A program made the position numbers and the translations under genes. The notes below the pieces were generated by a model. That model was not told where the DNA came from. It did not search any database and saw only the letters and a program-made list of their open reading frames with translations. DNA of 64,000 bases. Origin: a virus. The stretch spans positions 15,192 to 79,191 of IMG/VR virus record IMGVR_UViG_3300050821_002957, one strand, 5' to 3'. This document shows positions 13,722-44,112 of the stretch, one piece after another (positions within the stretch are counted from its first letter, which is position 1; the number at the start of each line of letters is the position of its first letter).

Positions 13722-13751
13722 CGCAAGATATTTAGCGATGTATTGAAAGAC

Positions 13752-14087: not shown

Positions 14088-14088
14088 A

Positions 14089-19614: not shown

Positions 19615-20127
19615 TTAGAGGTTTGAAGCATTTGCGGTGACAGCTATATTGGTGGAAACCAAAATTTGAGCGAACTCCAACAATTCGTTGTGAGTGTTCT
19701 CTCCTTTTGCTGAGTTATAAATCCAAACCACAAGTCTGACGTTTGTTTTTGTATATCCTTTTGCCGGATCTTCACGATCAAGCGATGGAGCATATTTATT
19801 CTTTGCTGTCGCCGCTGACTCAAAATCAAAAGCTATGCCAGTCACGTCACACTTACCAGCTTGAAGTTTGGGTAGAAGCCACTCGAATGTAAGATCAAAT
19901 GGAACTCCAATTTTCTTAGCTCGACTTTCTGCGTTATACAATAATCGTTTTGCCCTTCGGTCCAAAGATGTCAAATTTACTCTTTTCAATTTTTTATATG
20001 AAGGTTGACTTCTTTTTGACAAACGGAAGGCTTCCATTTCAACTTCTGTCACTGGTAAACCCTTCCGCAGCTTTACTCCGGTAGAATATTCAGATTTTCC
20101 TTTATAGGGTTTACATTTGCGTATCAT
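19615..20127 (-). CDS. HNH-family homing endonuclease (paralogue of 13254-13721) inserted between the terminase and sheath genes
   Basis: KYAPSLDREDPAKGYTKTNVRLVVWIYN motif. Confidence 0.55.
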   Translation of the reverse strand: MIRKCKPYKGKSEYSTGVKLRKGLPVTEVEMEAFRLSKRSQPSYKKLKRVNLTSLDRRAKRLLYNAESRAKKIGVPFDLTFEWLLPKLQAGKCDVTGIAFDFESAATAKNKYAPSLDREDPAKGYTKTNVRLVVWIYNSAKGENTHNELLEFAQILVSTNIAVTANASNL

Positions 20128-21803
20128 AACCTTGGACCCCAGTTAGTATCTGGCTCGTCAAATGCCGAAGAGATGAAGCCAAAAGGAACAATGTCTTCTT
20201 CGAGTGCAGCATTATAATCACGTTTTAATTGGCTATACACATCGGTATCAGTCAACTCTTTAAAGTACTTCTGATTGACCAACCATCCAAAATTCACTAG
20301 ACACATTGCCAAGTCATCATGCTTACCTTCTTCAGCAGCGTATGAATTCCGCACCGAAATAAACGATGTCAACTCTTGAATGATCTGGTAATCATAAACG
20401 AGCAGCTTGTCCGCTTCGATCAACGTCTTCAAGTTGCCGCAGCCAATTCGTTTGGTTCCCTTGTTCGAGCGAAGACCAAACTCTACATTCTTAGTGAAGC
20501 CGCCGCCGACCTGAGTACCTTTTCCCTTCGTCGTCGTCGTAATAATATTCTCGTACTCCTGTTCCATCTGGAGTGACTTCGCAACGTCATTGTCGTTTGT
20601 CTCAACCATCACGTATGCGCTATTGTATTTAGTCGCTGCCTGAGCTATTACATCCGGGAACAACATGGGGGTAATCTTGTCGGACTGATACTTCGCCACA
20701 ACCTGATAAGGCATAGTTGTGATGTCAAAAATGATGAAAGCCGAAGCGTCCAATTCCTTTCCGCCTGCCACGTCCGCTGTCAGAACGTACTGATGTCCAT
20801 TGGCTGGTGGAGTGTGAACATCCAGCTTTGCTTCTGAACCATCTATAAACTGCGAATAACGAAGTTGAATGGTGCCTAATGGTGACTTCCATGTCTTCAT
20901 CATCAATTCCAATTTGTTATGATCGATGAGAGTGTTGCTTGAACCAATAAATTCGCATTCAAACTCTTGGCGGAATTGAGAATCGCTGGTCAAAGAAATT
21001 GTTTTCTGTTTCCATTTTTGGTCACGCAGTCCAGTGCCGTCAGGTTTGGGAACCATACTCCAATGAATGGCGAACGGTTCATAACCATTCCATTTGATTT
21101 GTGGATCGGGTGAGTTTCGAGGATTATTTGCCTGCGTCCACATGGCGTGAAACATGTTCATACCATTTGGTGTCGAGACGATGATGACCTTTGTGGTTTC
21201 ACCAGACGAAATTGTCGGATAGACCGATTTGAAGAAGTCATCGGCAATGTGCGCCGGAACGAATGCGAACTCATCAAGGAAGATCAGGTTGAAAGCGTTA
21301 CCACGTATTGCATCGGATGCTGTGGACGATGCCATGATCTTGCATCCGTTCTCAAGTTCGATGTTTCCTTTGTTCCATTCAATGACGCCCTGCTGCATCC
21401 ACTTCGGAATTCCCATGTACGATTTCTTGAGATCGCTGAGGAGCTTCTGGGCTGTCTTGTATTTGTTTGCCAGGATTGCTATGTTCTGCTGCTCTTTGAA
21501 TAAGATGGTCCAGAGTAAGAACGCACAAGTAGTAATTGACTTTCCTACCTGACGAGGACACTTGACGATGTTGAATCGGTTATGGACAAACTTAAGAACC
21601 ATCTTCTCTTGAAAGTCGTACAACTCGAAAGGAATCTCGCCTCGATCTACGTTCACGATCTTGACGTAATGTTTGATGAAGTAAATTGGATCTTCCGAAC
21701 ACTTCTGATATTCTGTTAGCTGCTGTAATGTAAACTGCTGACTGACGCCTTCTGCCTTGAGCTTCGGATTTCCAAGGTAAGACGTTGAGGTACTTCTAGG
21801 CAT
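20124..21803 (-). CDS. 17: terminase large subunit, T4 gp17 family
   Basis: Walker A CPRQVGKSIT; GVIEWNKGNIELENGC corresponds to T4 gp17 GIVEWNKGSIELDNGS; the nuclease-domain motifs (DxxxGxGxDxxA, EEGxHDD) align. Confidence 0.9.
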   Translation of the reverse strand: MPRSTSTSYLGNPKLKAEGVSQQFTLQQLTEYQKCSEDPIYFIKHYVKIVNVDRGEIPFELYDFQEKMVLKFVHNRFNIVKCPRQVGKSITTCAFLLWTILFKEQQNIAILANKYKTAQKLLSDLKKSYMGIPKWMQQGVIEWNKGNIELENGCKIMASSTASDAIRGNAFNLIFLDEFAFVPAHIADDFFKSVYPTISSGETTKVIIVSTPNGMNMFHAMWTQANNPRNSPDPQIKWNGYEPFAIHWSMVPKPDGTGLRDQKWKQKTISLTSDSQFRQEFECEFIGSSNTLIDHNKLELMMKTWKSPLGTIQLRYSQFIDGSEAKLDVHTPPANGHQYVLTADVAGGKELDASAFIIFDITTMPYQVVAKYQSDKITPMLFPDVIAQAATKYNSAYVMVETNDNDVAKSLQMEQEYENIITTTTKGKGTQVGGGFTKNVEFGLRSNKGTKRIGCGNLKTLIEADKLLVYDYQIIQELTSFISVRNSYAAEEGKHDDLAMCLVNFGWLVNQKYFKELTDTDVYSQLKRDYNAALEEDIVPFGFISSAFDEPDTNWGPRL

Positions 21804-29460: not shown

Positions 29461-30723
29461 TTAGGTGATAGTGACAAAAAGCGTTCCTCTAGCTCCTAAA
29501 CTGTTATTGCCGCCAGCACCAAAATTGTTGTGTGTGATTGCAACCCAGTTGTGACTGTCCAAAGAATTGATCGTTGTTTCACAAGGGTATCCGTCATTGG
29601 AGACAAAGGCATTCCACAACTGTCCACGGAAATAACTTGTATCACCTACCCCAGTGAGTCCCCAGCCAATTAATGGATCACTCATAACAGCACTCATGTC
29701 ATGCCATAGAGAACTACCGGGACTTTCTGCTGCCATCATATATGTTGCAGTCTGAGTTGATGCTAGAGATTGATAGCCTGGGCCGTCGCTATTATCACTT
29801 GTTTGGTCTACTAAGTTTCCATTACAAAGATGTTGAAAACTTGGACTTGGTTCTGTTCCATTCCAAATCGAACAAGCTAATCGTGTCCGAAATGAAATCC
29901 TAGGCTGCGATGGAACGTCTGAATCTGAAGCAGCATTTCCTTGCAGCCACATGGCTTCCCAAATTGCACCTTGAAGTGAAGTTGGAATAAATGGCACACC
30001 AAAGGCAGCATAATCCCGAGACTGAACAGATCCAGGAACAACAATAAATGCTTGGTATTTGTTGCCATACATTTTGAAACCTTTTCCTGCGGCAGGGAGA
30101 AGCATTGTTCCGTTGCTATTTCCATTGGCTCCCACCTTTGAACCTGAAACATTTTGAAGGCTGATGCCAACTGTATTTGAGTTTGTTGTGGTGATTGTCA
30201 CCTGCATCCGTAAATTTTGTGAAGCTGGTGAGCATGAAGACATACAGACAATCGAACTTGAATGATGGCCCGATACTGTAATCCACCCAGAAGCAACTAA
30301 ATTATCCTCAATACCGGATGCCAAATCCTGTTTTGTATCGCCGATGAAAGAATTGGCTACAACCGAACCACCTGTATAGGTTTGATAAGAATTTCCACCC
30401 GAAACGAACCCCAAAATTGTATTGGAATTGTTAGATGGAGAATTGAACAAAATGGTTGAAGACAGTCCGAGAGACGATCCATCACGAATGCGAACGTAGT
30501 TGATTCCGTTGATCGTACAAACTGATGCTGTGGCTCCAGCCAAACCAGAAAGATCAGTAACGATTTGTGCGGCAGTTCGAGCAGAACCGTTCGTAAGCGT
30601 AAAGACTTGAGCCGATCCACCATCAATACTTACGGAGAATTGATTGTTAGACGAAGTTATGTTGTAAGGCTCTGGGAGCGTATTTACAGCATCAGCGACA
30701 GAATCAGCAAATTGAATAGACAT
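29461..30723 (-). CDS. fibre-like protein (family D; paralogue of 30732-31940)
   Basis: MSIQFADSVADAV...SVSIDGGSAQVFTLTNGS parallels MSIQFMDLNADAV...SVTIDGGSAQVFTLTHGS; C-terminal GQLWNAFVSN domain. Confidence 0.55.
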   Translation of the reverse strand: MSIQFADSVADAVNTLPEPYNITSSNNQFSVSIDGGSAQVFTLTNGSARTAAQIVTDLSGLAGATASVCTINGINYVRIRDGSSLGLSSTILFNSPSNNSNTILGFVSGGNSYQTYTGGSVVANSFIGDTKQDLASGIEDNLVASGWITVSGHHSSSIVCMSSCSPASQNLRMQVTITTTNSNTVGISLQNVSGSKVGANGNSNGTMLLPAAGKGFKMYGNKYQAFIVVPGSVQSRDYAAFGVPFIPTSLQGAIWEAMWLQGNAASDSDVPSQPRISFRTRLACSIWNGTEPSPSFQHLCNGNLVDQTSDNSDGPGYQSLASTQTATYMMAAESPGSSLWHDMSAVMSDPLIGWGLTGVGDTSYFRGQLWNAFVSNDGYPCETTINSLDSHNWVAITHNNFGAGGNNSLGARGTLFVTIT

Positions 30724-30731: not shown

Positions 30732-31940
30732 TTAGGTGACAACGAAGAAAGATCCCCGACCTGTAGTTGATGTGCCAGTATTACTAGATGTGAGATTTTG
30801 CCAATTGGCTCCATCAATCGAAGTCAAAGTAGAATCGATAGTATATGATTCATTTGAGACGAAAGCATCCCAAAGCTGTCCACGACCCATTGCTTCGTCG
30901 GTAGCGGCTGTCAAACCGTACATAATGATGGGGTCTCCTAACATTGCACTTGCATCGTGCCATCTGTACCAACTAGCTGTTGTGCCGGGAAAAATATTTC
31001 CAAACTGGTTCAACAGACACATCATACCTGCGCCGCCGCCTGTAGGATTATTTGCAATTTCCCAAAGATTGTTATTCGTGATGAAGGTACAATTTCCAAT
31101 TCCCGGACTACCGCCCCAACCTAAAGCAGTCCTAAATGAACCTCGTACCGATGTATCTGAATCTGATGCCGCATTCCCATTAAGCCAGATTGCTTCGTAA
31201 ATGACCGTTTGCAAAAATGAAGGAAGACAAGGTACACCGAAACCAACATAACCTCGTGCCGTACTAGAACCAGGAACAAAAGCAAACGCCTGATACTTGT
31301 CAGCGATTACCTGATATGAACCATTTGATGGCAGCAAAAATCCACCATTGCTTGTGCCCTGTGTGCCTGCTTTTGTTCCCGTCACATTGGAGATTGTCAC
31401 ACCAAGACAATTCGTACTTGCGTATAAGCTGACCCTCATTCTCAAATTTGAAGGATAGGGCGTCATGGACGATTGCAGAACGGTAGGTATCGAATGATGT
31501 CCCGAAATTGTAATCCATCCGGCACTGTTAAGAGCATCCTCAATACCAGAGGCTACAGTCTGCTTGGTCGAAGTCGAAAATGTAGAACTGACATTCGCAC
31601 CACCAGTATATGTGGTCGCCACGAATCCTAAAGTTGAATTAGCATTGCTAGATGGAGCATTTATCAAAATTGTCGAACTTGATCCAAGTGCCGAAGTATC
31701 ACGAATACGGACGTAATTTGCACCGTTGACTGTTGCTACTGATGCTGTTGCTCCAGTCAAAGCGGAAAGGTTTGACACAACCGTAGCAGCAGAAACCGTA
31801 GAACCATGTGTAAGAGTAAAGACCTGGGCTGAACCACCATCAATGGTCACCGACAATTGATCATTTGACGACGAGATATTATATGTGTCGTTCACCGTGC
31901 CTACTGCATCGGCATTGAGGTCCATAAATTGAATTGACAT
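30732..31940 (-). CDS. fibre-like protein (family D)
   Basis: Tandem paralogue of the preceding gene; the C-terminal domain is also shared with the protein encoded at 35201-36106. Confidence 0.55.
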   Translation of the reverse strand: MSIQFMDLNADAVGTVNDTYNISSSNDQLSVTIDGGSAQVFTLTHGSTVSAATVVSNLSALTGATASVATVNGANYVRIRDTSALGSSSTILINAPSSNANSTLGFVATTYTGGANVSSTFSTSTKQTVASGIEDALNSAGWITISGHHSIPTVLQSSMTPYPSNLRMRVSLYASTNCLGVTISNVTGTKAGTQGTSNGGFLLPSNGSYQVIADKYQAFAFVPGSSTARGYVGFGVPCLPSFLQTVIYEAIWLNGNAASDSDTSVRGSFRTALGWGGSPGIGNCTFITNNNLWEIANNPTGGGAGMMCLLNQFGNIFPGTTASWYRWHDASAMLGDPIIMYGLTAATDEAMGRGQLWDAFVSNESYTIDSTLTSIDGANWQNLTSSNTGTSTTGRGSFFVVT

Positions 31941-32909: not shown

Positions 32910-33971
32910 TTAGGAAAACGGTTCCCAATAGTTGGTCGGTGTGGTTCCGGTTTCGACTTCAAGCGAAAGAAGTTCGGCGAACATCGTTAAGCTGCTCCAT
33001 TCACCCAAATAGACTCCCATGTGAGTAGGGCGATTCGGGAGAAAGTCCGTCTGTGAGTAAGCGTTATCGGCTGGCCACATGGAACCATCGCCTGAGATTG
33101 CAAGGTAAATGTCGCTATTGTGATACCCAAGCGCAAGATAATGAGGTACGCCGTTGTTGAACCCTTGGATACTAGCACCTCGACCCGTCGAATACTTCGT
33201 AGTGCTGAGATTTTGTGTGGTGATATCGTTCCAGTAGTAGTAATTCACGGTGCCGTTTGTGTCGGTGTTCCAGCAGACCGCCTTGCCCGATGCGGCGTCA
33301 TAGAGGTAGATACCAAATCTAGAGGTGCCCGCCGCTGAGTGAGACGACCGACGAAGGTACAATCTTGCTCTGAAGTCGCCGCTGCCTGGAAGATTGCTTG
33401 ATGGCGGGTGGAAGAAGGCATCGCCGTTATTAGTTCCGCCGTTGCCAAGACGGGTCACACCGCCTAGACTTGTGTACACATGGAAGTCACTACCGCTTGT
33501 CTTGTACAGCGTGTAAGTCGAACCATTAACAGGCGTACACAGGTGACCGAATGCGTAAGCGTCCCAAGACGTACCGTTGAAATAGTACTCGTAGGGGCTG
33601 GCATCGGTCGCTTTGTAGCGGTCACCTGTGTACGCAACCGTCGTAGAAGGCAGGTTGGCGTAGGTGCCTGTCTGGTTCTGATTCGCACGAATTGTTGTAA
33701 TGGCACCAGCCGTCAAAACAGCACCTACGGCTGTACCACTAGTATGAGTTGCTGCGGTGGTAGATTCGTAACCACGAGTGACCGTCCAAGTTGTTCCTGA
33801 AACTGCCGTTACTAACATGATCTCGTTATCGATTTTGATTCGGAAATTTCCTGTTGTAGGATAGCCAGTCGATGTGTTTACACTGATACTCGTGGACGAT
33901 GTTGAGGTAATCGCCGAGGCAAGGTAATTACTGATATTGAAATCGTTGCAATATTGTTCTGAAAGTGCCAT
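32910..33971 (-). CDS. fibre-like protein
   Basis: 353-aa beta-rich ORF in the fibre block. Confidence 0.5.
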   Translation of the reverse strand: MALSEQYCNDFNISNYLASAITSTSSTSISVNTSTGYPTTGNFRIKIDNEIMLVTAVSGTTWTVTRGYESTTAATHTSGTAVGAVLTAGAITTIRANQNQTGTYANLPSTTVAYTGDRYKATDASPYEYYFNGTSWDAYAFGHLCTPVNGSTYTLYKTSGSDFHVYTSLGGVTRLGNGGTNNGDAFFHPPSSNLPGSGDFRARLYLRRSSHSAAGTSRFGIYLYDAASGKAVCWNTDTNGTVNYYYWNDITTQNLSTTKYSTGRGASIQGFNNGVPHYLALGYHNSDIYLAISGDGSMWPADNAYSQTDFLPNRPTHMGVYLGEWSSLTMFAELLSLEVETGTTPTNYWEPFS

Positions 33972-33975
33972 TTGC

Positions 33976-34374
33976 TTATGTCAATTGAACTGTGAGATTA
34001 CCAGACAAAATTTTAACTTCTTCTGTAGCGTTAACTGTGATGCTTGAATTCAGCGCTCCATAATACAGAAGATTGCCAGTGGTCAAAGCATCCCATATGC
34101 TTATATAGGCAACAGTTCCCCAACCTGCTGGTGTTGCTCCACCCCAAACAATTAAAGCATTTGTGCTGATCGAACCACCAGAGACAGAAGCCCATGAGAT
34201 GGCTTGCCGAGCGTATGCGTTACCACTGATCTCGTTTGCAAGAGCCGTAGACGTAGACGCAGTTGGATTCGTCGCATGAAGTCCAGCGTAGACTGTTGTC
34301 GGTGGAGTGTACGCTGAATTGTTGAGCGTCCCATTCAACAGGGCGTTCTGTAAGTAAGTGCTGAATGCTCCCAT
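33976..34374 (-). CDS. small fibre-associated protein (family C, copy 1 of 3 tandem paralogues)
   Basis: Shared pattern L.AtnPtas....E.sg..Y.RQ.I.....G.....n.....G.....WG.V...I.DA.T.GNLL.YG.L. Confidence 0.5.
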   Translation of the reverse strand: MGAFSTYLQNALLNGTLNNSAYTPPTTVYAGLHATNPTASTSTALANEISGNAYARQAISWASVSGGSISTNALIVWGGATPAGWGTVAYISIWDALTTGNLLYYGALNSSITVNATEEVKILSGNLTVQLT

Positions 34375-34800
34375 TTAACTCTCTGTCAGCACTAAACCAG
34401 CATTTGGGATTCGGAATCCATCACCTGTATTAATAGTCTTTGCTACCGTAAGTGTGCCGAAATACAAAATGTATCCTCCGGTCGAAGCTGACATGATGGC
34501 TCCTGCTACTACCGTTCCCCAATTTCCCGTTGCCGTTCCAAAATCAATGAGATTCTGATTTGATTTGACCCCGGCTGTTGTGACAGTCCAATTTTGTGTA
34601 TAAGGTGTTCCCAAGTCGTTGGAAATTGCTTGACGAGTATACCCGGTTCCTGACGTGCTTACCTCTGTTCCACCGCCTGTCCAAGTTGGTGCTGCGGTGT
34701 ACAGTGCCACGTAGACGGTTGTGAGCCGAGTATAACTTGGACCACCGAGTACATGATCCAAAATGTCGTCTGCGAGTGTCTGTCCTTTACCTGATGCCAT
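34375..34800 (-). CDS. small fibre-associated protein (family C, copy 2)
   Basis: Tandem paralogue. Confidence 0.5.
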   Translation of the reverse strand: MASGKGQTLADDILDHVLGGPSYTRLTTVYVALYTAAPTWTGGGTEVSTSGTGYTRQAISNDLGTPYTQNWTVTTAGVKSNQNLIDFGTATGNWGTVVAGAIMSASTGGYILYFGTLTVAKTINTGDGFRIPNAGLVLTES

Positions 34801-34814
34801 CTTATGGTATATAG

Positions 34815-35201
34815 CTACGAAACTGTAGCCGTGACGTTTCCGGTCAAAAATTTCAATACGTCACCAGCACCCACGTATTGAGGCGAAACCAAAGGTCCAA
34901 AGAACAACAAATTACCGCCTGTCGATGCATCTAGAATTGCTGCATAAACCACGTTGCCCCAGACACTCCCAGCGTAAGGGAAGGCAATATCCGTAGTGTT
35001 TGAGACGCTGCCGCCTGAGGGCGTACCAAATATGATTGGCTGGCGTACATAACTGACACCACTGATTTCTGTTCCGGTATCTGAAGCCGTAGGATTGGTC
35101 AAATAAAGAGCGAGAAACCAACTTGTAGGTAATGTAAACGAAGCATCGGTCAACAATGCGCCAATGACCTTGTTCGCTGTGGTCGTTCCAAGTGCTGCCA
35201 T
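34815..35201 (-). CDS. small fibre-associated protein (family C, copy 3)
   Basis: Tandem paralogue. Confidence 0.5.
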   Translation of the reverse strand: MAALGTTTANKVIGALLTDASFTLPTSWFLALYLTNPTASDTGTEISGVSYVRQPIIFGTPSGGSVSNTTDIAFPYAGSVWGNVVYAAILDASTGGNLLFFGPLVSPQYVGAGDVLKFLTGNVTATVS

Positions 35202-36106
35202 TATGCGCTCACATGGAAAAGCGTTCCTCTCATTGATGCTGGGAGAGTAACGTTTCCGTTATTGTTATTTGTTAAACTATAGTAAGTATGCGAATCGACC
35301 AAAGAAGTTGTGTCTGCTGGATACGATTCAGTTGCAATGAACGAATCCCAAAGTTGTCCAGTGAGTTTTCCTTCATTATCGATAGTCGGAGCACCCCATG
35401 CAATTAGCGGTTCGACTATCAACGCTGAATCGTCAACCCAACGGTATCCTGTAATCACATGAGTAGCCGTCGATTGAAAACAAACCAATGATGGAAGACC
35501 GGGGTGAGTTGAACTGTCTGCTGCGATTGCATTATACTCTACCGCTGTGCTATTGATGATCGACCATCCTTGTGAAGGTGCATACCCAACCAAACCTCGT
35601 GCATTTAATGATGTTCTAAAACTTCCTACCGTGTTACTTGTATCCGTATCAGACTGACCATCGCCCATAATGAATGCAGCGGTTGTCACTCCAAAGGTCA
35701 CCAAGTTTGGCGGAAGATAGACGGCGCTCGCCATACAAAAATTTCGACTTGAAACCGATCCCGGAACAAAAATCACAAATTGATACTTGTCTGCGATGAT
35801 ACGATAATTCGCACTCGATGATGGATACAAAAAACAACCAACCGATTGGCTGAGTGTTTGTGTTGTATTCATCATACGAAGGCAAATACTCTGTGTACTG
35901 CCACCTGGATCAAAAACTCGTACCTTGATCTGATTGCTCTGAGGCGTAAGAGCACTTTGATAGATTTTGTCTACGGAACTGTTGGTCGTCGTGATGCTCC
36001 AACCGGCTCCTGTAATTGCCGAATCAATCGCTGCGAATAATGATGCCTTATCCACAACGGTAGTAAGTGTGTTGACGAGTGTGCCGCCTGCGTATTGAAT
36101 TGCCAT
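35201..36106 (-). CDS. fibre-like protein sharing the family D C-terminal domain
   Basis: GQLWDSFIATESYPADTT...SMRGTLFHVSA parallels GQLWNAFVSNDGYPCETT...GARGTLFVTIT. Confidence 0.5.
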   Translation of the reverse strand: MAIQYAGGTLVNTLTTVVDKASLFAAIDSAITGAGWSITTTNSSVDKIYQSALTPQSNQIKVRVFDPGGSTQSICLRMMNTTQTLSQSVGCFLYPSSSANYRIIADKYQFVIFVPGSVSSRNFCMASAVYLPPNLVTFGVTTAAFIMGDGQSDTDTSNTVGSFRTSLNARGLVGYAPSQGWSIINSTAVEYNAIAADSSTHPGLPSLVCFQSTATHVITGYRWVDDSALIVEPLIAWGAPTIDNEGKLTGQLWDSFIATESYPADTTSLVDSHTYYSLTNNNNGNVTLPASMRGTLFHVSA

Positions 36107-36107
36107 G

Positions 36108-37187
36108 TTAGCTTGTAATCTCTATTCCAAATTCTGCGTCGTTCAAATCCACCAATGCCCACGGAGCCGATGTCGCAGGATTGTACTCCCAGATGTCTCC
36201 CATGTACGTGTATGAAGAGTAACAAACAAAATCTGGACCTTGATAATTGGTAGATCCTAATCTTAGCAAGGGACAGACGCTTCGGCTTCCCGTATTGTCC
36301 CGTCTCACTGACATGTGTTCTTGAACTGCAAAAATATTGCCAGTGATAGCAAAAGGAGTGATCGAATAAAGATCGATTGCACCCACGTTTCCATTGTAAT
36401 TATATAGTCCAGTCTCTACGTAGTTCGTCACACCATCGACGTTCAAAGCATTGACAGAGCCAGTAGAACGTAAGAAATCATTTTCGTATCCATCTGCATC
36501 AGGATAGTTCGTCTGGACTCTGACCTCTCCTAAGAAAGTCGTGTGTCTTAGACCATCGTTAGGGTCGATCATGTAAAAATCATCGACAATCACGGATGGT
36601 CCAAGTCCACCCATTTGAGACAAGTGAAAAATATTCCAAGTTGGATTGCTACTCTGTTGTGTTGTGATGCCGCCGACATTGCATAAAGTTGCTCCATCGA
36701 CACGAATTTCTACGCTGCCAGGACTACCGACTGTAATTGCAATTTCGATATAAAACCACAATGTCAAAGGAGGGACAAATGTGGTTGTTGCTAGAATCGT
36801 ATCTGTAATTTGATCGCCATAGCCGGTCCTAACTTCGATCACATAAGTTGTAGGGTTAACCCACACCGAACACTGAATTGTTTCTACTGATGACTGAAAG
36901 TCACCCAAAAACATAAATGGCTCAGTGATGCCGCTATTGAAACCCTGAAAAGAATTAATCAAAACCGCAAATCCTACGATCACACCGGCACGGCTTGACG
37001 TAAATTGTTTATGAAGTCCATTCTGGATACCTTCGGTCGTACCAGTGCTTGAACCAAGAGACACACAACCACCGCCCCATCTTCCCACACCACCGTTTAT
37101 GGCATTCGTCGCTTGATCCCATAGACGACCACCAGGACCATAGACGTTTTGTGTGAAATCGAACCCATCAAAGAAAATTATGCTCAT
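36108..37187 (-). CDS. fibre/receptor-binding-like protein (family B, copy 1 of 3)
   Basis: MSIIFFDGFDF... N-terminus and a conserved C-terminus ...W.LVDLN.A.FGI.ITS shared by the three copies. Confidence 0.5.
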   Translation of the reverse strand: MSIIFFDGFDFTQNVYGPGGRLWDQATNAINGGVGRWGGGCVSLGSSTGTTEGIQNGLHKQFTSSRAGVIVGFAVLINSFQGFNSGITEPFMFLGDFQSSVETIQCSVWVNPTTYVIEVRTGYGDQITDTILATTTFVPPLTLWFYIEIAITVGSPGSVEIRVDGATLCNVGGITTQQSSNPTWNIFHLSQMGGLGPSVIVDDFYMIDPNDGLRHTTFLGEVRVQTNYPDADGYENDFLRSTGSVNALNVDGVTNYVETGLYNYNGNVGAIDLYSITPFAITGNIFAVQEHMSVRRDNTGSRSVCPLLRLGSTNYQGPDFVCYSSYTYMGDIWEYNPATSAPWALVDLNDAEFGIEITS

Positions 37188-37189
37188 AC

Positions 37190-38236
37190 TTAACTGGTGA
37201 TATCAATTCCAAATTGTGCTATGTTCAAATCCACCAAGTCCCACGGTACGTTGCCATTTGGATTGTTCTCCCAAATTTTTCCCGCCCAAGTATAAGTCGA
37301 ATAACATGGCACCGATGTACCTTGGTAGTTGGTCGAGGCAGTTCTGAGCAACGGAGCAATTTGTCGATTACCTACGTCGTCTTTTCGGAATGACAAATTC
37401 TCTTGAACCGCAAAAATGGTTCCTGAAATCGTAAAATTTCCAATTGAATAGAGATCAACTGCGCCAACCGTGCCGCTATAGTTGTAGACACCGTGCTCTG
37501 CATAATCAGTCGGAGTTGTGTTGACATTGGCCGAATTGTTAGTGCCAACCGAAGGAAAGAAATCATTTTCAAAACCATCGGCATCTGGGTATTGCGTCTG
37601 TACTCTGACTTCTCCCAAAAAATCTACATTATTCGTTGCGTCTGTTGTATCGATGATGTAAAGATCGTCAATCGAAATATTAGTGCTAAAGGATTGAAGC
37701 GAACTGAGGGCAATCTTGTTTGTAGAGGCATTGGTGCTTTTTTGGGTTTGTACGCCGGTCACCGTAATCTGTGGCGTTCCAGCTACGTTAATTTGAAAGC
37801 TGCCGGGATTTCCAATTTGCATCTTTACTTCGATATAAAACCATAGAGTAAGAGGCGGAACGAAACCTGAATCACCAAGTGTCGAATCACCGAGATTTTG
37901 TCCTAACTCCTGACGTACTGTGATTGTGTTCGTTGTGGGATCAACCCAAAGCGAACACTGTGGAGTTGTACCATCAAAGAAAGCAAGAAATGGCTTGTTA
38001 ATTCCACTGAAATTTGCTACATTCATTGCGAAACCAACAATCACTTCACTTGAGCTAGTAAAAGTTTTGGTTGTCGGAGAATAACCGCCAGTTACACCAC
38101 CACTAGGCAACAAGCCTTGACCTCCAAAACGCCCACCTGTGACAAGACCGCCCGAACCTTGATCCCACTTGCGGCCACCAGGACCAAAACCAGCACTATT
38201 GTAAAAATCGAAACCATCAAAAAAGATAATTGACAT
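37190..38236 (-). CDS. fibre/receptor-binding-like protein (family B, copy 2)
   Basis: Tandem paralogue. Confidence 0.5.
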   Translation of the reverse strand: MSIIFFDGFDFYNSAGFGPGGRKWDQGSGGLVTGGRFGGQGLLPSGGVTGGYSPTTKTFTSSSEVIVGFAMNVANFSGINKPFLAFFDGTTPQCSLWVDPTTNTITVRQELGQNLGDSTLGDSGFVPPLTLWFYIEVKMQIGNPGSFQINVAGTPQITVTGVQTQKSTNASTNKIALSSLQSFSTNISIDDLYIIDTTDATNNVDFLGEVRVQTQYPDADGFENDFFPSVGTNNSANVNTTPTDYAEHGVYNYSGTVGAVDLYSIGNFTISGTIFAVQENLSFRKDDVGNRQIAPLLRTASTNYQGTSVPCYSTYTWAGKIWENNPNGNVPWDLVDLNIAQFGIDITS

Positions 38237-38239
38237 TGA

Positions 38240-39265
38240 TCACCCCACGATCTTAATTCCGGCGAAGCTGGCGTTCAACTCAGTGTTGGTCCATGTTCCC
38301 GCTGTGTTGGGATTTTGCTGCCATAATGTTTGTGCAACGCTATATTGACTTAAACAGGTCACTGAGCTACCCAAATATGTCGTGCTACCTGTATTAATAA
38401 GCGGAGCGATGACACGAGAACCTACGTCATCCTTTCTTTGTGTACAGTTTACCTGGACACCATAAATTGTTCCTGTTAGTGCCAGGGTTCCCATCGTATA
38501 GTTGTCGATGTTACCAACTACTGCCGAACGGATATAAGTTGCATCGTCATCGGCTACTGGACTATCATCGACAGCTTGATAGTTGCTCCCTGCTCCAAAG
38601 GCAGTAAAATCATTCTCATTACCGTTTGCTGTAGGATACTGCGTCTGGATTCGACATTCACCCAAGAAATCTGTATTGAACGATCCTGTGTCATTTAGAA
38701 CGTACAGATCATCGATCATGAATTCAAAAGCGCCACTACTACCGAACGGTTGAAGGCGAATCGAATTGACATAATTGTTGCCAGTGTATTTTGTGTTGAG
38801 ACCTGTGGCGTTTAAATAAGTTGAACCATTGAGGCGAATCTGAACGTAGCCACTGGAATTATTAATGAACACTTTGATTTCCATATAGTTCCAGAAACCA
38901 AACGTAAATAGACCAGGAAGGCTCGTCGCAATGGTTGTACCGTTTCTTGTGACCTGAAAACCGGCATCACTAGTCACTCGAACATCTACTTGCGTAATCG
39001 GACTACTTGGACTGCCTGTTCCATCACCAAAAACGATAATAGGATTCGTCGGATCACCATATGCCAACGAAAAAGCTACACCCAAAACCACAGTCGATGA
39101 ATTAGCGATTGGTGTGGCAAGATACCCAGGTTGATTGTTCCAACCATATCCCATTCCACCAAAACGTCCAGGCACAATGCTAAGACCATTTTGGTAATAA
39201 GGCCAGACACGCTGGACTTGTGATTGATTATAGTAATCGAATCCTGTCATGAATAGAAGAGACAT
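38240..39265 (-). CDS. fibre/receptor-binding-like protein (family B, copy 3, most divergent)
   Basis: Tandem paralogue. Confidence 0.5.
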   Translation of the reverse strand: MSLLFMTGFDYYNQSQVQRVWPYYQNGLSIVPGRFGGMGYGWNNQPGYLATPIANSSTVVLGVAFSLAYGDPTNPIIVFGDGTGSPSSPITQVDVRVTSDAGFQVTRNGTTIATSLPGLFTFGFWNYMEIKVFINNSSGYVQIRLNGSTYLNATGLNTKYTGNNYVNSIRLQPFGSSGAFEFMIDDLYVLNDTGSFNTDFLGECRIQTQYPTANGNENDFTAFGAGSNYQAVDDSPVADDDATYIRSAVVGNIDNYTMGTLALTGTIYGVQVNCTQRKDDVGSRVIAPLINTGSTTYLGSSVTCLSQYSVAQTLWQQNPNTAGTWTNTELNASFAGIKIVG

Positions 39266-39266
39266 G

Positions 39267-40328
39267 TTAGCTCCCTAATGCAAAGTCACGATGAATGTTA
39301 AATTTGATCGAAATCATCTCTGCATCGGCGGCAGCAGTATCGCCTGCACTTCTTGCAAATTTGAAGAAAAATTCATCACCCGGCTGCAAACTACCCAAGA
39401 ACAACGGAGTGATACGACTCTTTACAATTGTGTCTGCTACACCAGGGACCGTAGTCGTAATTGAGGCGATGCTACCAAATGTAAAATCGTCAGTGCTTCC
39501 CGGCGAAATATATCCAGTCTGGCATTGCCATGTGACTGTTCCTGTCGTTGCTGCTGTGCGCCAATAAATGTCGAGTGATACTGTATCTCCTACCCAGTCA
39601 TCCGGCCAATAAAAGTGATCTTGAACCCAATAGTTGTTTCCAGCCGTGAAAGCAGCGACCGCATAAATTTCACCGTTCGTGCCTGTATAAGGAACAGCGT
39701 TCGGGGCATTTGTCAGACCAAAAGAGAAACCTAGAACTGCATTGGACCCCTGAAAGATTGCACCCTTGTAAAAGACCGGATAGTTAATGTTGCCAGTCGC
39801 AGGCTCAATGCTAGTGATTCGACCAGTGGCATCTACGGTGATTGTATCGAATCGATTGAATCCACCATAGGTTCCGGCTGTGACTCCGTTCGGCTTCAGA
39901 TACAAATTGGAAAACAATCCGCCGATGGTCGATCCACCTGCCTGATCGTTCTGCATGACAACGTTTCCAAAGTTCGCACCAAGACCAGCTTCAATCGCTT
40001 TGATTTCTGCGGCGATTTGATTGTGATGATAGGCCAACACGTAGCCCTTTACCGGAGCGTTTTGACCGTGGCTTGTGGGAGAAGTAAGATTATAACCACG
40101 AGTGCAACTCATCATGACGTTGCCAGAAATAGATCCTACAAGAATAATTTCGGTGTCAATCTGGACAAGACATGGAGCATTGTACTTCGTGCCATCGACA
40201 ACAGTAAACTGTGTCTGGGAGCCATCAATCGAGAACGTCAGATAACTAAGCGCACGATTAGCTGCGACAGTCAAGTTAATATCAGCGGCAACACCAGCAG
40301 GGAAAATTGGATTTTGTGGATTTGGCAT
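39267..40328 (-). CDS. tail fibre protein (family E N-terminus), immediately downstream of the small terminase gene
   Basis: N-terminal domain shared with the protein encoded at 25558-26535; GVTAGTYGGFNRFDTITVDATGRITSIE fibre motif. Confidence 0.55.
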   Translation of the reverse strand: MPNPQNPIFPAGVAADINLTVAANRALSYLTFSIDGSQTQFTVVDGTKYNAPCLVQIDTEIILVGSISGNVMMSCTRGYNLTSPTSHGQNAPVKGYVLAYHHNQIAAEIKAIEAGLGANFGNVVMQNDQAGGSTIGGLFSNLYLKPNGVTAGTYGGFNRFDTITVDATGRITSIEPATGNINYPVFYKGAIFQGSNAVLGFSFGLTNAPNAVPYTGTNGEIYAVAAFTAGNNYWVQDHFYWPDDWVGDTVSLDIYWRTAATTGTVTWQCQTGYISPGSTDDFTFGSIASITTTVPGVADTIVKSRITPLFLGSLQPGDEFFFKFARSAGDTAAADAEMISIKFNIHRDFALGS

Positions 40329-40330
40329 TT

Positions 40331-40828
40331 TTATTCTTCATCCGTATTTAGGGTCTCTGAAGTAACGTCAATGACCCGAAGAGCATCTTTCAAAGCTCCG
40401 TTAGCATTCAGTTCTTTCATCTGCTTCAATAATTCTCCGGTCGAACCGATAAATACAGCATTATTCTGCGTAATAGTATCTCCACCCGACTTCCCAGATT
40501 CACGTTCAATCTCTTTCTTGGTTTTCCGTAGACCAATCAGAGCCAAAGCAGTATCTCGGGCTTCTTTTTGTGCCATTGCTGCTGCTTCGACAGACCTAGA
40601 GTCCTGTTTTTCTTTGGCAAAAAAATTGGCATTATCTACCAATTCATTTCCCTTTTCTACTAGATTGTGAAGTGTGCGACGAGCGACATCAAAATCGTAT
40701 TCCATGTCCTTGTCGTCATTGCCGGTAGAGACAACTTCAGCAGGTTGGACGGTTACAATCTCTTGTGAGGCTGGCGAAGGTTCCAAATTAAAAGTGGCAT
40801 CAAGTTTTTCATTCACTGTTGGTTTCAT
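40331..40828 (-). CDS. 16: terminase small subunit, T4 gp16-like
   Basis: DDKDMEYDFDVARRTLHNLVEKGNELVD and NAVFIGSTGELLKQMKE parallel T4 gp16 [24 protein letters not shown] and NATVFMGSPTELMDEIGD. Similar size (165 aa) and an acidic C-terminus. Confidence 0.55.
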   Translation of the reverse strand: MKPTVNEKLDATFNLEPSPASQEIVTVQPAEVVSTGNDDKDMEYDFDVARRTLHNLVEKGNELVDNANFFAKEKQDSRSVEAAAMAQKEARDTALALIGLRKTKKEIERESGKSGGDTITQNNAVFIGSTGELLKQMKELNANGALKDALRVIDVTSETLNTDEE

Positions 40829-40830
40829 AA

Positions 40831-41304
40831 TTACATTGGTCTGATCTGGACCGTAACTTCTAAAACTCCTGCTGAGAGCGTGCTTAACAAAGCTCCTGTG
40901 CTCGTGAAGTATGCAGCCAAATCATGTGCTCCGTTAAAATATAATCCTGTCACCGGGGCGAATGATTCACTTTCTCCCAGACTCAAATTATTTGCGGGAG
41001 GGCCGGATTGTGAAAATGCTGTCGGTGTGACAAACTGAGTTAGTTCCATCGACAAGCCATAATAATTCAAATTTGAAAGAATCGTGTTAGGAACGAATGC
41101 TGCCAAAGTGACCGTTAGACTAGAAAGTCCAGCGGCAGCGAACGAGGTAAGCAGGCGCATATTTGTTCCACAGACCACGTAGTTAATGGGTAGACCAACG
41201 ATCAGAAATGAAAAAGTATTTTGAGGCGTCGAAAGGGCTGTGTACGGAATATTCGTCTTGTATTCGATGATCTCGTTAGGAGGTACTGTAGGAAGAGTTA
41301 TCAT
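40831..41304 (-). CDS. small protein, family F copy 3 (start taken at MITLPT so that it overlaps the upstream gene by ATGA)
   Basis: FLIVGLPINYVVCGTNMRLLTSFAAAGLSS parallels the two genes immediately upstream of it. Confidence 0.45.
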   Translation of the reverse strand: MITLPTVPPNEIIEYKTNIPYTALSTPQNTFSFLIVGLPINYVVCGTNMRLLTSFAAAGLSSLTVTLAAFVPNTILSNLNYYGLSMELTQFVTPTAFSQSGPPANNLSLGESESFAPVTGLYFNGAHDLAAYFTSTGALLSTLSAGVLEVTVQIRPM

Positions 41305-41813
41305 AATGCTGTATATTGAGTCGTAATCTCGACCACCCCACCAGAGACTTGAGAAATATTTGGGCCACCTGCTACCATGACTCTTGCAATTACGTCGTGT
41401 GCATCCAATCTTTGTGGAAGGCACAATGCACTATTGATGGTAGTATTCGATCCCGGAGTAGCGAGACTAAACCAACGAAAAGACCCATATTCATAGCTAT
41501 CGCCTGAACCACTAGGAACCGTAAGCAGACCGCTGCCATACAAATTATTGACATTGGTTACATAAGGTGATCCTGAAAGCGGAAGGTTATTCGACTCTCC
41601 CACATAAATCGTCACATTATTGGTTGTGCCTGCATCGAAATTTTCCAAAGTTACAATTTTTACGCCTAAGACAATATGATTTGCTGGGATACCAAACAAC
41701 AAAAAATCCTGAAACAAATTTGTCGATGTAAAGTTTGTTCCCTGTGAAAGAACAACTTTGTGCGTATAGACTGTCGAGTGACCTAGTACAGGTAAGTTCA
41801 TACTGATCTCCAT
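41301..41813 (-). CDS. small protein, family F copy 2
   Basis: FLLFGIPANHIVLGVKIVTLENFDAGTTNNVTI; C-terminal ...GGVVEITTQY. Confidence 0.45.
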   Translation of the reverse strand: MEISMNLPVLGHSTVYTHKVVLSQGTNFTSTNLFQDFLLFGIPANHIVLGVKIVTLENFDAGTTNNVTIYVGESNNLPLSGSPYVTNVNNLYGSGLLTVPSGSGDSYEYGSFRWFSLATPGSNTTINSALCLPQRLDAHDVIARVMVAGGPNISQVSGGVVEITTQYTAL

Positions 41814-42247
41814 AGAACGGTGATCAATATCTCACCGGCTGTCAATGACGCTAACTGAGCACCAAAGGTATTTACGGTCGCTGTGACATCATGTGGATTT
41901 TCTGTATAAGAAGAAAATGGCGTCCAATACATGAAAGTTTTAGGACTCACCGTCTGAACGAGACCAAAAGCTGGTGCATAATAGTTTGCAACTGACGTAG
42001 AAGCGATATTGTCGGTCGCTCCGATAGTCACGTTAGCAGAACTTAGACCGGACCCTGCAAATTCAGTGACAAGTTTAACCATCACACCGACGACAACAGA
42101 TTGAGCAGGAAGTCCAAAAATCGTATACGACTGTGTAGTGGCTGTGGCCGTGAAACTTACAGGCGCAGGCGGATTTTGGCGCAGAACATAATCAAACCTC
42201 TGCGTATTGCCCGGAATTCTCGAAATAGTTTGTGTTGTCGTAGGCAT
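41798..42247 (-). CDS. small protein, family F copy 1
   Basis: TIFGLPAQSVVVGVMVKLVTEFAGSGLSSANVTI; C-terminal LTAGEILITVLWR. Confidence 0.45.
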   Translation of the reverse strand: MPTTTQTISRIPGNTQRFDYVLRQNPPAPVSFTATATTQSYTIFGLPAQSVVVGVMVKLVTEFAGSGLSSANVTIGATDNIASTSVANYYAPAFGLVQTVSPKTFMYWTPFSSYTENPHDVTATVNTFGAQLASLTAGEILITVLWRSV

Positions 42248-42620: not shown

Positions 42621-43043
42621 TTACGATAGTGCCGTGATTAAAGCGACAGTATCACTTAGCATCTCATTGATGAATGTCGATGAGATCGCAAATTCTGTTC
42701 TTGATGCTCCTGGGTTGTCAGTCAAAGTAAAATCTGTGCTGAAGTTAATAGTGTTTTCAGCCGGAAGGGGAACAGTATTTGATTCAATCGTCTGAATTCC
42801 ACCAGACTCAGACAAAGCATTAAGTTTAGTTTTGTCGCTAGTAGACATGAATCCCGGAGTCATCGTGGTTGCATTGGGGTGCGTATGAACTTTTAGAGCC
42901 AACGGTACGCCACCAGCCGTTACGCCATCACCAATTACCGCTGTGGTTGCTACAGTGTCAACAACAAGTTCTCCTAGTTCGAGTACGAGCGTTGAGAGTT
43001 GGGTTGTCGTGAACCTTCTTTTTCTTACAACTTGATTGGACAT
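42621..43043 (-). CDS. short fibre-like protein with the family A N-terminal motif
   Basis: RKRRFTTTQLSTLVLELGELVVDT...GDGVTAGG...HTHPNATTMTPGFMSTSDKTKLN. Confidence 0.5.
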   Translation of the reverse strand: MSNQVVRKRRFTTTQLSTLVLELGELVVDTVATTAVIGDGVTAGGVPLALKVHTHPNATTMTPGFMSTSDKTKLNALSESGGIQTIESNTVPLPAENTINFSTDFTLTDNPGASRTEFAISSTFINEMLSDTVALITALS

Positions 43044-43059: not shown

Positions 43060-44112
43060 TTAGGGATTGAGCACGAGAGTAACTGAATTATTTTGTCGTG
43101 GATCTTGAACCGAAACAAACGTGATCGTAATAGTCTCCTGGGTGGCTCTAATACCCGTTCCAGCGGTGTACCTGAACGTGTTATGAACCGAATCTATGGA
43201 GTATGTATCGTTGCCAGATTGGGTCGTTGTTGGAACATCTGCCGTAAAAGCGATATTCGTTGCATTGACGATAGTGATCTGAAAAACCTGCGACTGACCG
43301 CCCGACAAAGTAACTGTCGAAGGTGTGACCAAAACAAGAACAGTAGTTTCTGTGATCGATGTCGTTCCATCTATAACAGCTATTGCATCTGAATTTGGTG
43401 GGTAAGCGATAATTGTCTGTGAAGGAAGCGATGCACCTTGAGTTGCTGTACCACCATCCACATTGAAACGAATCTGAGTCTCAAGGTTTACCATTGTCAT
43501 CTTGACTGGAGGGTAGAGATACGCCTTCGCCGTAAAATTTAGAGTCCATGTAATCATTCGACGATCAAACTGCCCTTCATAGTTGTCTTCCTGAACAATG
43601 TTGCCGCCAAAAAGAAGAACGATGTCTTTTTCTAGATTTAACGCTGGCATATCGTTCACATGGATCGTATAGTCTGGTGTGAAAAATGGAACGATCTGCT
43701 CGACAATCTGAAGACCATCTTCAAACGTCTTTGTCATGATATGGAGATCAATTCCGATGTTGTACGGAACTGGGTTGTACTGAGCGTTCAAGACACCACG
43801 ATTCCCCATGATGGCCTGAACGGTTCGACCAGTACTCGTGATTTTGCGGGAGGGATCGTACTGATAGCTTGTGATTTCATAACTCATGCGTGGCAAAATC
43901 ATTTCAGGCTGGTCATTTACTCCAGGCATTGGGTTCTGCGTATTACGAATGAACCATTTTTCCTTCGGCCCGTATTCACACGGAACCTCAATAGTCTGGT
44001 AGACCGTTCCATCAGCATTCATTCTGGCAATATGAAGATCAGAAAAGACCACACCGAAAGACTCGACAATCTTTCGGATACTTCCCCAATAAAATGGTGC
44101 ATTCTGTAGCAT
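43060..44112 (-). CDS. 15: tail sheath stabiliser / tail completion protein, T4 gp15 family, with a ~100-aa Ig-like C-terminal extension
   Basis: FEDGLQIVEQIVPFFTPDYT...RRMITWTLNFTAKAYLYPPV corresponds to T4 gp15 DDMFQIVEQILPYFQPHFN...RRRIEWSLTFEVNGWMYPPV. Confidence 0.75.
   Translation of the reverse strand: MLQNAPFYWGSIRKIVESFGVVFSDLHIARMNADGTVYQTIEVPCEYGPKEKWFIRNTQNPMPGVNDQPEMILPRMSYEITSYQYDPSRKITSTGRTVQAIMGNRGVLNAQYNPVPYNIGIDLHIMTKTFEDGLQIVEQIVPFFTPDYTIHVNDMPALNLEKDIVLLFGGNIVQEDNYEGQFDRRMITWTLNFTAKAYLYPPVKMTMVNLETQIRFNVDGGTATQGASLPSQTIIAYPPNSDAIAVIDGTTSITETTVLVLVTPSTVTLSGGQSQVFQITIVNATNIAFTADVPTTTQSGNDTYSIDSVHNTFRYTAGTGIRATQETITITFVSVQDPRQNNSVTLVLNP

What the first reader, a model, noticed from the sequence alone, without database searches (positions are those of the whole stretch)
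33976..39265. Two tandem triplications of fibre-associated genes (family C about 130 aa x3; family B about 350 aa x3)
33976-34374, 34375-34800 and 34815-35201 encode mutually alignable ~130-aa proteins. 36108-37187, 37190-38236 and 38240-39265 encode ~350-aa proteins with an identical N-terminus (MSIIFFDGFDF) and a conserved C-terminus (W.LVDLN.A.FGI.ITS). Tandem paralogue arrays within a fibre locus suggest recent duplication and divergence for receptor specificity, or a heterotrimeric assembly.
Basis: seen in the sequence. Interest (0 to 1): 0.6.

Follow-up and report, generated by a model that had tools for sequence, protein, structure and literature searches.

The report
Diverged gene triplets, jumbo-phage fibre locus
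Two runs of three related genes in an uncultured ~400-kb T4-like phage are real but ancient paralogues: small globular building blocks (a GP4 'chain-fibre' bead protein and a lectin-fold protein) of a variable host-attachment gene cassette. This is an ordinary kind of phage feature in an unusual combination.

Summary
All six ORFs exist at the stated coordinates, on the minus strand. They fall into two families: B with 34-53% aa identity (BLASTP 1e-42 to 1e-115) and C with 35-41% (1e-12 to 1e-24).

The duplications are not recent. Synonymous sites are saturated, and every copy has its own orthologue (61-84% identity) in related metagenomic phages.

Family C is Pfam PF23140, podophage GP4 fibre-I protein gp80 (PDB 8jou), whose dimers are strung on a rope protein to make a chain-like fibre. 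Family B is phrog_2448, a very large uncharacterised family. Its AF2 model shows an N-terminal ConA-like lectin/glucanase jelly roll plus a C-terminal beta domain.

The gene between the two arrays (35201-36106) belongs to a third triplet, family A, whose fold matches the JBD30 fibre-forming proteins gp47/gp48.

The arrays sit in a roughly 20-kb cassette between terS and terL of a ~405-kb T4-like phage. Relatives share the order F-B-B-(B)-A-C-C-(C)-A, with 2-3 B and 0-3 C copies. Independent B triplets occur in Chi-like phages.

My best reading is that these are sub-functionalised subunits of non-canonical, bead-like adhesion fibres. Their location in the virion and their stoichiometry are inferred, not shown. 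I rate this a new variant of a known kind, of moderate interest.

The parts
38240..39265 (-). B3 (341 aa). First B gene in transcription order. Lectin-fold two-domain protein, phrog_2448.
   Evidence: ORF. phrog_2448 E 1e-33. Orthologue in L029 at 84% aa identity. Position-1 clade across all relatives.
37190..38236 (-). B2 (348 aa).
36108..37187 (-). B1 (359 aa). Fastest-evolving B copy.
   Evidence: phrog_2448 E 2e-31. 53% identical to B2. Orthologue in L029 only 61% identical.
35201..36106 (-). A3 (301 aa). Member of a third paralogue family, lying between the two arrays.
   Evidence: BLASTP to A1/A2 3e-33 and 3e-36. AF2 pLDDT 90.2. Only one significant PDB fold match, JBD30 baseplate chain 8rk3_G (E 9e-8, TM 0.58).
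34815..35201 (-). C3 (128 aa). Gp80-family bead protein.
   Evidence: PF23140 E 2e-34. Orthologues at 75% in L029/L030 and 63-65% in L002.
34375..34800 (-). C2 (141 aa). Gp80-family bead protein.
   Evidence: PF23140 E 1.4e-34. Orthologues at 70-75% in L002, L128, L029 and L038.
33976..34374 (-). C1 (132 aa). Gp80-family bead protein of a separate lineage.
   Evidence: PF23140 E 1.7e-35. Orthologue at 73% in L030, located there after an extra A gene. 48-51% identical to single-copy C genes of small phages, against 37-41% to C2/C3.
39267..40328 (-). F1 (353 aa). Fibre-like protein with a shared ~120-aa N-terminal 'anchor'. Always precedes the B array in relatives.
   Evidence: N-terminus 42% identical to 25558-26535 (E 2e-24). 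Weak tail-fibre PHROG hits. F-B adjacency holds in all jumbo-clade loci.
32910..33971 (-). F2 (353 aa). Second anchor-type fibre-like protein, immediately after the C array.
   Evidence: PHROG tail / tail-fibre hits, 1e-9 to 1e-5, over residues 10-124. N-terminal similarity to 25558-26535.
30732..31940 (-). A2 (402 aa). A family with an added ~110-aa N-terminal domain.
   Evidence: 50% identical to A1, E 5e-120.
29461..30723 (-). A1 (420 aa). A family with an added ~110-aa N-terminal domain.
   Evidence: Orthologue-like 405-411-aa A genes occur in triplicate in L130-L133.
40331..40828 (-). Small terminase (gp16-like). Upstream boundary of the cassette.
   Evidence: phrog_445 E 7e-25.
20124..21803 (-). 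Large terminase (gp17-like). Downstream boundary of the cassette.
   Evidence: phrog_2 E 2e-63. 50% identical to cyanomyovirus gp17.

Best explanation
The two arrays are old, individually conserved paralogues. They encode small globular structural subunits of an accessory host-adhesion apparatus.

Context. They are part of a co-directional, tightly packed cassette of about 20 kb. It lies between the small and large terminase genes of an uncultured ~405-kb T4-like jumbo phage.

Family C. These are GP4-gp80-type 'beads'. In the solved homologue they dimerise and are threaded on an extended rope protein to give a chain-like fibre or whisker.

Family B. These are two-domain proteins whose N-terminal half is a ConA-like lectin/glucanase jelly roll. 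Most likely they bind, or possibly cleave, surface glycans.

Family A. The gene between the arrays has the fold of the JBD30 gp47/gp48 proteins, which stack as heterodimers into arm-like fibres.

Proposed mechanism. Each paralogue has taken a distinct, non-redundant place or specificity in such bead-built fibres. The core set (F, B3-type, B1/2-type, A) is always kept. Extra B, C and A copies are gained and lost between phage lineages to retune host recognition.

What is shown: paralogy, age, family membership of C, folds of B and A, synteny, and copy-number variation.

What is inferred: virion location, heteromeric stoichiometry, and glycan binding.
For: Paralogy is far beyond chance.

Family C:
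- PF23140 at 1e-34 to 1e-35 against a gathering score of 27 bits.
- Full-length match to 8jou_a, E 5e-22.
- GP4 fibre I is built from gp80 dimers on a rope protein, and myophage Bas63 has structurally related whiskers (PMC12609058).

Family B:
- High-confidence AF2 model, pLDDT 92.8.

Family A: single specific fold match to a JBD30 fibre-forming protein. Its heterodimer architecture is described in PMC11445458.

Context: gp14, gp15, terS, terL, sheath and portal are all present. Intergenic gaps within the arrays run from -1 to 14 nt.

Conservation:
- The order F-B-B-(B)-A-C-C-(C)-A recurs in at least 12 related loci, with B 2-3 and C 0-3.
- Orthologues are closer than paralogues, and orthologue dN/dS is roughly 0.05-0.18.
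- The B tree groups copies by gene position.

B, A and C also co-occur pairwise in unrelated contigs: B-C in L011/L014, A-C in L138/L144/L147/L148.

Independent conserved B triplets exist in Chi-like phages and in L044/L046.
Against: - There is no direct evidence that any of these proteins is in the virion.
- No homologue of the GP4 rope or fibre-tail-adaptor proteins was found by sequence in the window.
- The A-JBD30 link is fold-only; hhalign is not significant.
- ConA-like folds are also found in enzymes and other non-adhesin proteins. The top B matches include polysaccharide lyases.
- Most phages carry a single B and a single C, so the families can work without paralogous partners.
- The B homologues of Chi-like phages are absent from PDB sequences, although Chi/YSD1 virion structures are published.
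- Homo- versus hetero-oligomer predictions could not be run.
Confidence: 0.6

Rival explanations
1. Alternative receptor-binding modules. Each paralogue forms its own homomeric unit with a different ligand specificity. The arrays broaden or switch host range rather than building one heteromeric structure.
For: - Copy number of B (2-3) and C (0-3) varies among close relatives.
- B1 evolves much faster than B3 (61% against 84% orthologue identity).
- Single-copy B and C suffice in most phages.
- GP4 gp80 works as a homodimer.
Against: - At least two B subtypes (the position-1 type plus a position-2/3 type) are always kept together, in fixed order, across the clade.
- C3 and C2 orthologues are kept as an ordered pair in most relatives.
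- Very tight gene spacing suggests coupled expression.
Confidence: 0.25
2. The B proteins are not structural adhesins. They are either polysaccharide-degrading enzymes (beta-jelly-roll lyase or glycanase) or fibre-assembly accessory proteins encoded downstream of the fibre gene F.
For: - Top fold matches include glucuronan lyase PL20, alginate lyases PL36/PL14, Cip1 and GH131.
- B arrays always follow a fibre-like gene.
- Chi-like B homologues are missing from solved structures.
Against: - Fold matches have only 8-16% identity, and no catalytic residues were checked.
- Equally good matches are non-catalytic lectin/CBM domains, including phage baseplate and RBP domains.
- The extra conserved C-terminal beta domain and the invariant ~340-aa size across more than 12,000 clusters fit a structural module better than a chaperone.
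Confidence: 0.12
3. The similarity among the copies is chance or low-complexity resemblance, and there are no gene families. This is the refutation condition the first reader gave.
For: None found.
Against: - BLASTP E-values run from 1e-12 down to 1e-115 over full length.
- All copies hit the same Pfam/PHROG models.
- Thousands of homologues exist.
Confidence: 0.01

Closest known systems
Ralstonia podophage GP4 fibre I protein gp80 (Pfam PF23140; PDB 8jou)
   Same: All three C proteins match the family model full-length (E about 1e-35) and the solved chain (E 5e-22). They are the same size (128-141 aa against 140 aa) and are likewise encoded among fibre genes.
   Different: - GP4 has one gene, whose product forms homodimers (five per fibre) on a rope protein attached to a 15-fold adaptor.
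- Here there are three diverged paralogues (35-41% identity) in a T4-like jumbo myovirus.
- No rope or adaptor homologue is detectable by sequence.
- C is single-copy in 86 isolate records and in 79 of 80 IMG/VR loci.
Felixounavirus Bas63 collar-whisker complex (gp5 whisker dimers on the collar's rope domain)
   Same: It is a contractile-tailed phage that uses GP4-fibre-I-like bead dimers near the neck. The C genes here lie in a cassette that starts right after the neck genes gp14/gp15.
   Different: Bas63 gp5 is related to gp80 only structurally. The C profile found no Bas63 chain in PDB sequences. Bas63 has a single whisker gene, and its neck location is shown, whereas location is not shown here.
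Pseudomonas siphophage JBD30 tail-fibre-forming proteins gp47/gp48 (PDB 8rk3)
   Same: - Family A (the gene between the arrays plus two more copies) has this fold (Foldseek E 9e-8, TM 0.58, the only significant PDB match).
- JBD30 sets the precedent that two diverged paralogues heterodimerise and stack into a non-trimeric fibre.
   Different: There is no detectable sequence or profile similarity. JBD30 has two paralogues next to the tape-measure gene of a siphophage. Here there are three, two of them with an extra N-terminal domain.
Chi-like Salmonella phages (for example Siskin gp32-gp35), phrog_2448
   Same: They carry tandem arrays of three to four B-family genes of about 320-340 aa, directly downstream of tail-tip and fibre genes.
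   Different: - The Chi arrays arose independently; they cluster by lineage in the tree.
- Identity to the window copies is only about 25%.
- They are annotated hypothetical, with no functional data found.
- They are in a siphophage with no A or C genes.
Phage lectin-fold receptor-binding or baseplate modules (Douge gp23 upper baseplate protein, TM4 gp23 C-terminal RBD, phage J-1 Dit CBM2)
   Different: These are domains inside larger baseplate or RBP proteins, with 8-11% identity. B is a free-standing ~340-aa protein with its own C-terminal beta domain.

Membership tests
Pfam PF23140 Gp80 (podophage GP4 fibre I protein), for family C | Full-length match to the family HMM above the curated gathering score | tested here: met
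   118.9-122.6 bits against a cutoff of 27, covering model positions 1-128, for all three copies.
Pfam PF23140 Gp80 (podophage GP4 fibre I protein), for family C | Sequence homology to the solved gp80 chain | tested here: met
   Profile of the three copies against 8jou_a: E 5.4e-22, end to end. phmmer of GP4 gp80 against each copy: 1e-15 to 3e-9.
Pfam PF23140 Gp80 (podophage GP4 fibre I protein), for family C | Partner rope protein and fibre-tail adaptor on which the dimers are strung | tested here: inconclusive
   No window ORF in 21.9-44.8 kb matches any other GP4 fibre-region protein (phmmer E<=1).
Pfam PF23140 Gp80 (podophage GP4 fibre I protein), for family C | Dimerisation and presence in the virion as a chain-like fibre | not testable with these tools
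   Needs multimer prediction, proteomics or cryo-EM.
JBD30 gp47/gp48 tail-fibre-forming proteins, for family A (35201-36106 and paralogues) | Shared fold | tested here: met
   Foldseek against PDB: 8rk3_G E 9.1e-8, TM 0.58/0.58. The next hit has E 0.19. The chain length of 305 fits gp48 (307 aa) or gp47 (318 aa).
JBD30 gp47/gp48 tail-fibre-forming proteins, for family A (35201-36106 and paralogues) | Detectable sequence or profile homology | tested here: not met
   hhalign of the 53-sequence A profile against gp48 and gp47: probability 0.4% and 0.1%. Family A is therefore filed as 'fold like', not as a family member.
Concanavalin A-like lectin/glucanase fold, for the N-terminal half of family B | Beta-jelly-roll fold match | tested here: met
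Concanavalin A-like lectin/glucanase fold, for the N-terminal half of family B | Sugar-binding or catalytic residues | not tested
   Conserved columns are listed (E136, D190/D191, Y193, R36, Q93) but were not mapped onto any ligand site.
PHROG phrog_2448 (unknown function), for family B | Full-length HMM match | tested here: met
   E 2e-31 to 2.5e-42 over profile positions 2-333 of 335.
   B and A model as compact globular monomers with pTM 0.91, and C's homologue is a dimer. No oligomer prediction was possible.
T4-like myovirus structural module (context) | Presence of gp14, gp15, gp16, gp17, gp18 and gp20 homologues in T4 order | tested here: met
   PHROG hits from 1e-25 to 1e-197. gp15 is 39% identical to Pelagibacter phage Mosig. 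TerL is 50% identical to cyanomyoviruses.

The most novel reading that the evidence does not exclude
In this group of ~400-kb T4-like phages, adhesion fibres are not homotrimers. They are pseudo-symmetric chains of globular beads in which duplicated genes have become obligate heteromeric partners. Examples would be a C3:C2 heterodimer replacing the gp80 homodimer, and a B3:B1/2 pair, in analogy to JBD30 gp47:gp48. Recurrent, independently evolved B triplets (Chi-like phages, L044/L046, L039) would then mark a general, so far undescribed, heteromeric adhesin built from the very large phrog_2448 family.
Probability: 0.25. Interest if true: 0.6.

Novelty: new variant of a known kind. Interest (0 to 1): 0.4.

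Why it matters
Phage host range is set by cassettes such as this one. This cassette combines three poorly known kinds of non-trimeric fibre building block in one operon of a jumbo T4-like phage: GP4 gp80 beads, JBD30 gp47/48-like subunits, and the uncharacterised lectin-fold family phrog_2448.

The paralogue sets are conserved by position. That makes them a good test case for how gene duplication turns homomeric fibre subunits into heteromeric ones.

The work also flags phrog_2448 as a worthwhile target for structural and functional study. The family has 28,435 50%-identity clusters, no Pfam model and no solved structure, and it forms tandem arrays repeatedly, including in well-studied Chi-like Salmonella phages.

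Tried and rejected
- Megablast of 33000-40400 against 50,697 phage records found no match, so there is no close cultured relative.
- Pfam and NCBIfam gave nothing for B, A, F or D.
- PDB sequence searches gave nothing for B, A, F1, F2 or D.
- hhalign of the A profile against JBD30 gp47/gp48 was not significant.
- A phmmer search for GP4 rope or adaptor homologues in the window found only gp80 matching C.
dS is above 1.8 or not computable. Only orthologue comparisons gave rough values.
- The metagenome-contig scan returned only 11 confirmed loci, too few for copy-number statistics. I relied instead on IMG/VR loci and contig look-ups.
- Sigma-70 promoter and terminator scans showed no enrichment. 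The T4 late-promoter motif TATAAATA is absent from the window. No operon boundaries could be defined.
- Literature on Chi/YSD1/PIN phages held nothing on the B homologues. The GP4 JMB paper is not held.
- No tRNAs were found that could hint at the host.
- I considered and rejected recent duplication, chance similarity, and a canonical heterotrimeric fibre.


Full report
**1. Observation**

The region 29-45 kb is read entirely on the minus strand. The six ORFs named in the finding exist at exactly the stated coordinates.

Family B comprises B1 (36108-37187, 359 aa), B2 (37190-38236, 348 aa) and B3 (38240-39265, 341 aa). They align end to end. B2 and B3 are 53% and 33% identical to B1. BLASTP E-values are 2e-115, 2e-42 and 1e-52.

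Family C comprises C1 (33976-34374), C2 (34375-34800) and C3 (34815-35201). Identities are 36-41%, with E-values of 9e-24, 2e-12 and 6e-17.

The quoted N- and C-terminal motifs are shared only by B1 and B2.

The gene between the arrays, A3 (35201-36106), belongs to a third family together with A2 (30732-31940) and A1 (29461-30723). Within the arrays, gaps between genes run from a 1-nt overlap to 14 nt.

**2. Context**

Flanking genes are T4-type:
- neck protein gp14 (44112-44846)
- sheath stabiliser gp15 (43060-44112)
- small terminase (40331-40828)
- large terminase (20124-21803)
- sheath (17178-19562)
- portal (14089-15939)

gp15 is at most 39% identical to any isolate, the best being Pelagibacter phage Mosig and cyanomyoviruses. 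TerL is about 50% identical to cyanomyovirus gp17. No isolate matches at the DNA level.

The exact proteins occur on a 405,631-bp contig. Relatives lie on contigs of 280-400 kb. The window therefore comes from an uncultured T4-like jumbo phage.

The arrays lie in a cassette of about 20 kb inserted between terS and terL. The cassette also holds:
- three proteins with an Mtd_N N-terminus
- three with another shared N-terminal 'anchor', here called F
- a 934-aa repeat protein

Upstream of terS there is a further tandem triplet, family D.

**3. What the families are**

Family C. All three copies match Pfam PF23140, 'Podophage GP4 fiber I protein gp80', at 1e-34 to 1e-35. Their profile matches PDB 8jou chain a end to end (E 5e-22). 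According to PMC12609058, GP4 fibre I consists of five gp80 dimers attached to a separate 'rope' protein that interlocks with an Ig-like collar. The same paper reports that myophage Bas63 has structurally related whisker dimers on a rope domain of its collar.

- lectin domains of sialidases
- Cip1
- PL20, PL36 and PL14 lyases
- phage lectin modules such as Douge gp23, the TM4 gp23 receptor-binding domain and the J-1 Dit CBM2

A second beta domain follows. The family is very large. A profile search found 28,435 50%-identity clusters at E<=1e-3 and 12,001 at E<=1e-30. The 150 best hits listed are nearly all full-length proteins of 325-375 aa.

Family A. A confident model (pLDDT 90.2) has one significant PDB match, JBD30 baseplate chain 8rk3_G (E 9e-8, TM 0.58). 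By length, this chain is one of the fibre-forming proteins gp47/gp48. In JBD30 three gp47:gp48 heterodimers stack into each arm-like fibre. Profile comparison shows no sequence-level homology, so this is a resemblance of fold only.

**4. Age and evolution of the copies**

Between paralogues, dS is saturated or not computable, and nucleotide identity is 44-56%.

Each copy has its own orthologue in relatives. Against L029 the aa identities are B3 84%, B2 79%, B1 61%, A3 81%, C3 75% and C2 73%. Rough orthologue dN/dS values are 0.05-0.18.

In a neighbour-joining tree of 65 B proteins, the position-1 gene (B3 type) forms one clade across all jumbo relatives. The B2/B1 split predates the divergence of the window phage from L029.

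C1's orthologue (73%) in L030 lies after an additional A gene. C1 is closer to single-copy C genes of ~30-kb phages (48-51%) than to C2 or C3. The 'triplications' are therefore old and were assembled stepwise. They are not recent local events.

**5. Comparative syntax**

HMM scans of all fetched loci, together with gene tables, give one order for the jumbo clade: F-B-B-(B)-A-C-C-(C)-A-(A-A).
- B has 2 copies in L002, L003, L032, L037/38, L128 and L130-133, and 3 in the window, L029 and L039.
- C ranges from 0 (L032) to 3.

Outside the clade:
- C is single-copy in isolates (87 places in 86 records) and in 79 of 80 IMG/VR loci.
- B is usually single.
- Independent, position-conserved B triplets occur in Chi-like Salmonella phages (Siskin gp32-34, with a distant gp35, directly after the tail-tip and fibre genes) and in L044/L046.
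- B-C and A-C adjacency recurs in unrelated contigs.

**6. Interpretation**

The best-supported reading is a late-operon adhesion cassette built from small globular subunits rather than classical trimeric fibres. C would provide gp80-type beads. A would provide JBD30-like stacking subunits. B would provide lectin-fold, probably glycan-binding, units.

A core set (F, two B subtypes, A) is conserved by position. Peripheral copies vary. B1 evolves faster than the other B copies. Together these fit sub-functionalised, non-redundant roles, either as partners in a heteromer or as distinct positions along a fibre. Turnover of accessory copies would then retune host recognition.

Virion location, stoichiometry and ligand are inferences. 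I found no rope or adaptor homologue and could run no multimer predictions.

The rivals are independent homomeric modules, an enzymatic or chaperone role for B, and chance similarity. The first two remain open; chance similarity is refuted.

**7. Verdict**

I classify this as a new variant of a known kind, of moderate interest. The most useful by-product is the recognition of phrog_2448 as a large, uncharacterised family that repeatedly forms tandem arrays.

Noticed in passing
window 40831-42247 (minus strand): 41798-42247, 41301-41813, 40831-~41301: A fourth tandem triplet, family D (149, 170 and ~156 aa; 26-37% identity), lies between gp15 and the small terminase. It is kept as three genes in relatives L002, L029 and L032. 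It has no Pfam, PHROG or PDB match. It may be a neck or collar component.
   Followed up: partly
window 22534-43043 (minus strand): Six families each occur in exactly three copies in this phage: A, B, C, D, the Mtd_N-headed proteins (42621-43043, 23897-25558, 22534-23862) and the 'anchor'-headed F proteins (39267-40328, 32910-33971, 25558-26535). Relatives have other numbers for B, C and A, so this may be coincidence.
   Followed up: partly
family B in general (window 36108-39265; proteins P0001-P0355): phrog_2448 is very large: 28,435 50%-identity clusters at E<=1e-3, almost all full-length ~340 aa. It has no Pfam or NCBIfam model and no solved structure.
   Followed up: yes
L033 (Salmonella phage Siskin NC_048727.1) 5998-10252: Chi-like phages carry an independent tandem array of B-family genes (gp32, gp33, gp34, with a distant gp35), annotated hypothetical, directly after the tail-tip protein and a DUF2793 fibre gene. 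This is a tractable system for testing the family's function.
   Followed up: partly
window 26558-29362 (minus strand): A 934-aa protein with many degenerate ~14-aa repeats (TTKTITGQSDIQ-like; 42-nt period in TRF). It has no Pfam hit and is probably a long beta-structured fibre shaft.
   Followed up: no
window 44864-45406 (+) and 45474-46394 (+): A Tpt1/KptA RNA 2'-phosphotransferase (PF01885, 5.5e-51) and a Ku protein (PF02735, 1e-18) are encoded divergently next to the neck gene gp14. The same pair, plus a faint precomputed Macro-domain hit on a neighbouring gene, is found in relative L029.
   Followed up: no
window 19615-20127 (minus strand): An HNH/endonuclease-VII-like gene lies immediately downstream of the large terminase. 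Relative L032 has additional GIY-YIG and HNH homing-endonuclease-like genes inside the gp15-terS interval.
   Followed up: no
L034 (LR756511.1, 595-kb uncultured phage) 12001-14389: An unrelated huge phage also has two adjacent B-family genes (340 and 363 aa) and three B matches in the whole record.
   Followed up: no
window 11418-13217 (minus strand): A 599-aa ORF inside the head-gene block, between the portal and the scaffold/capsid genes, has no PHROG or Pfam match.
   Followed up: no
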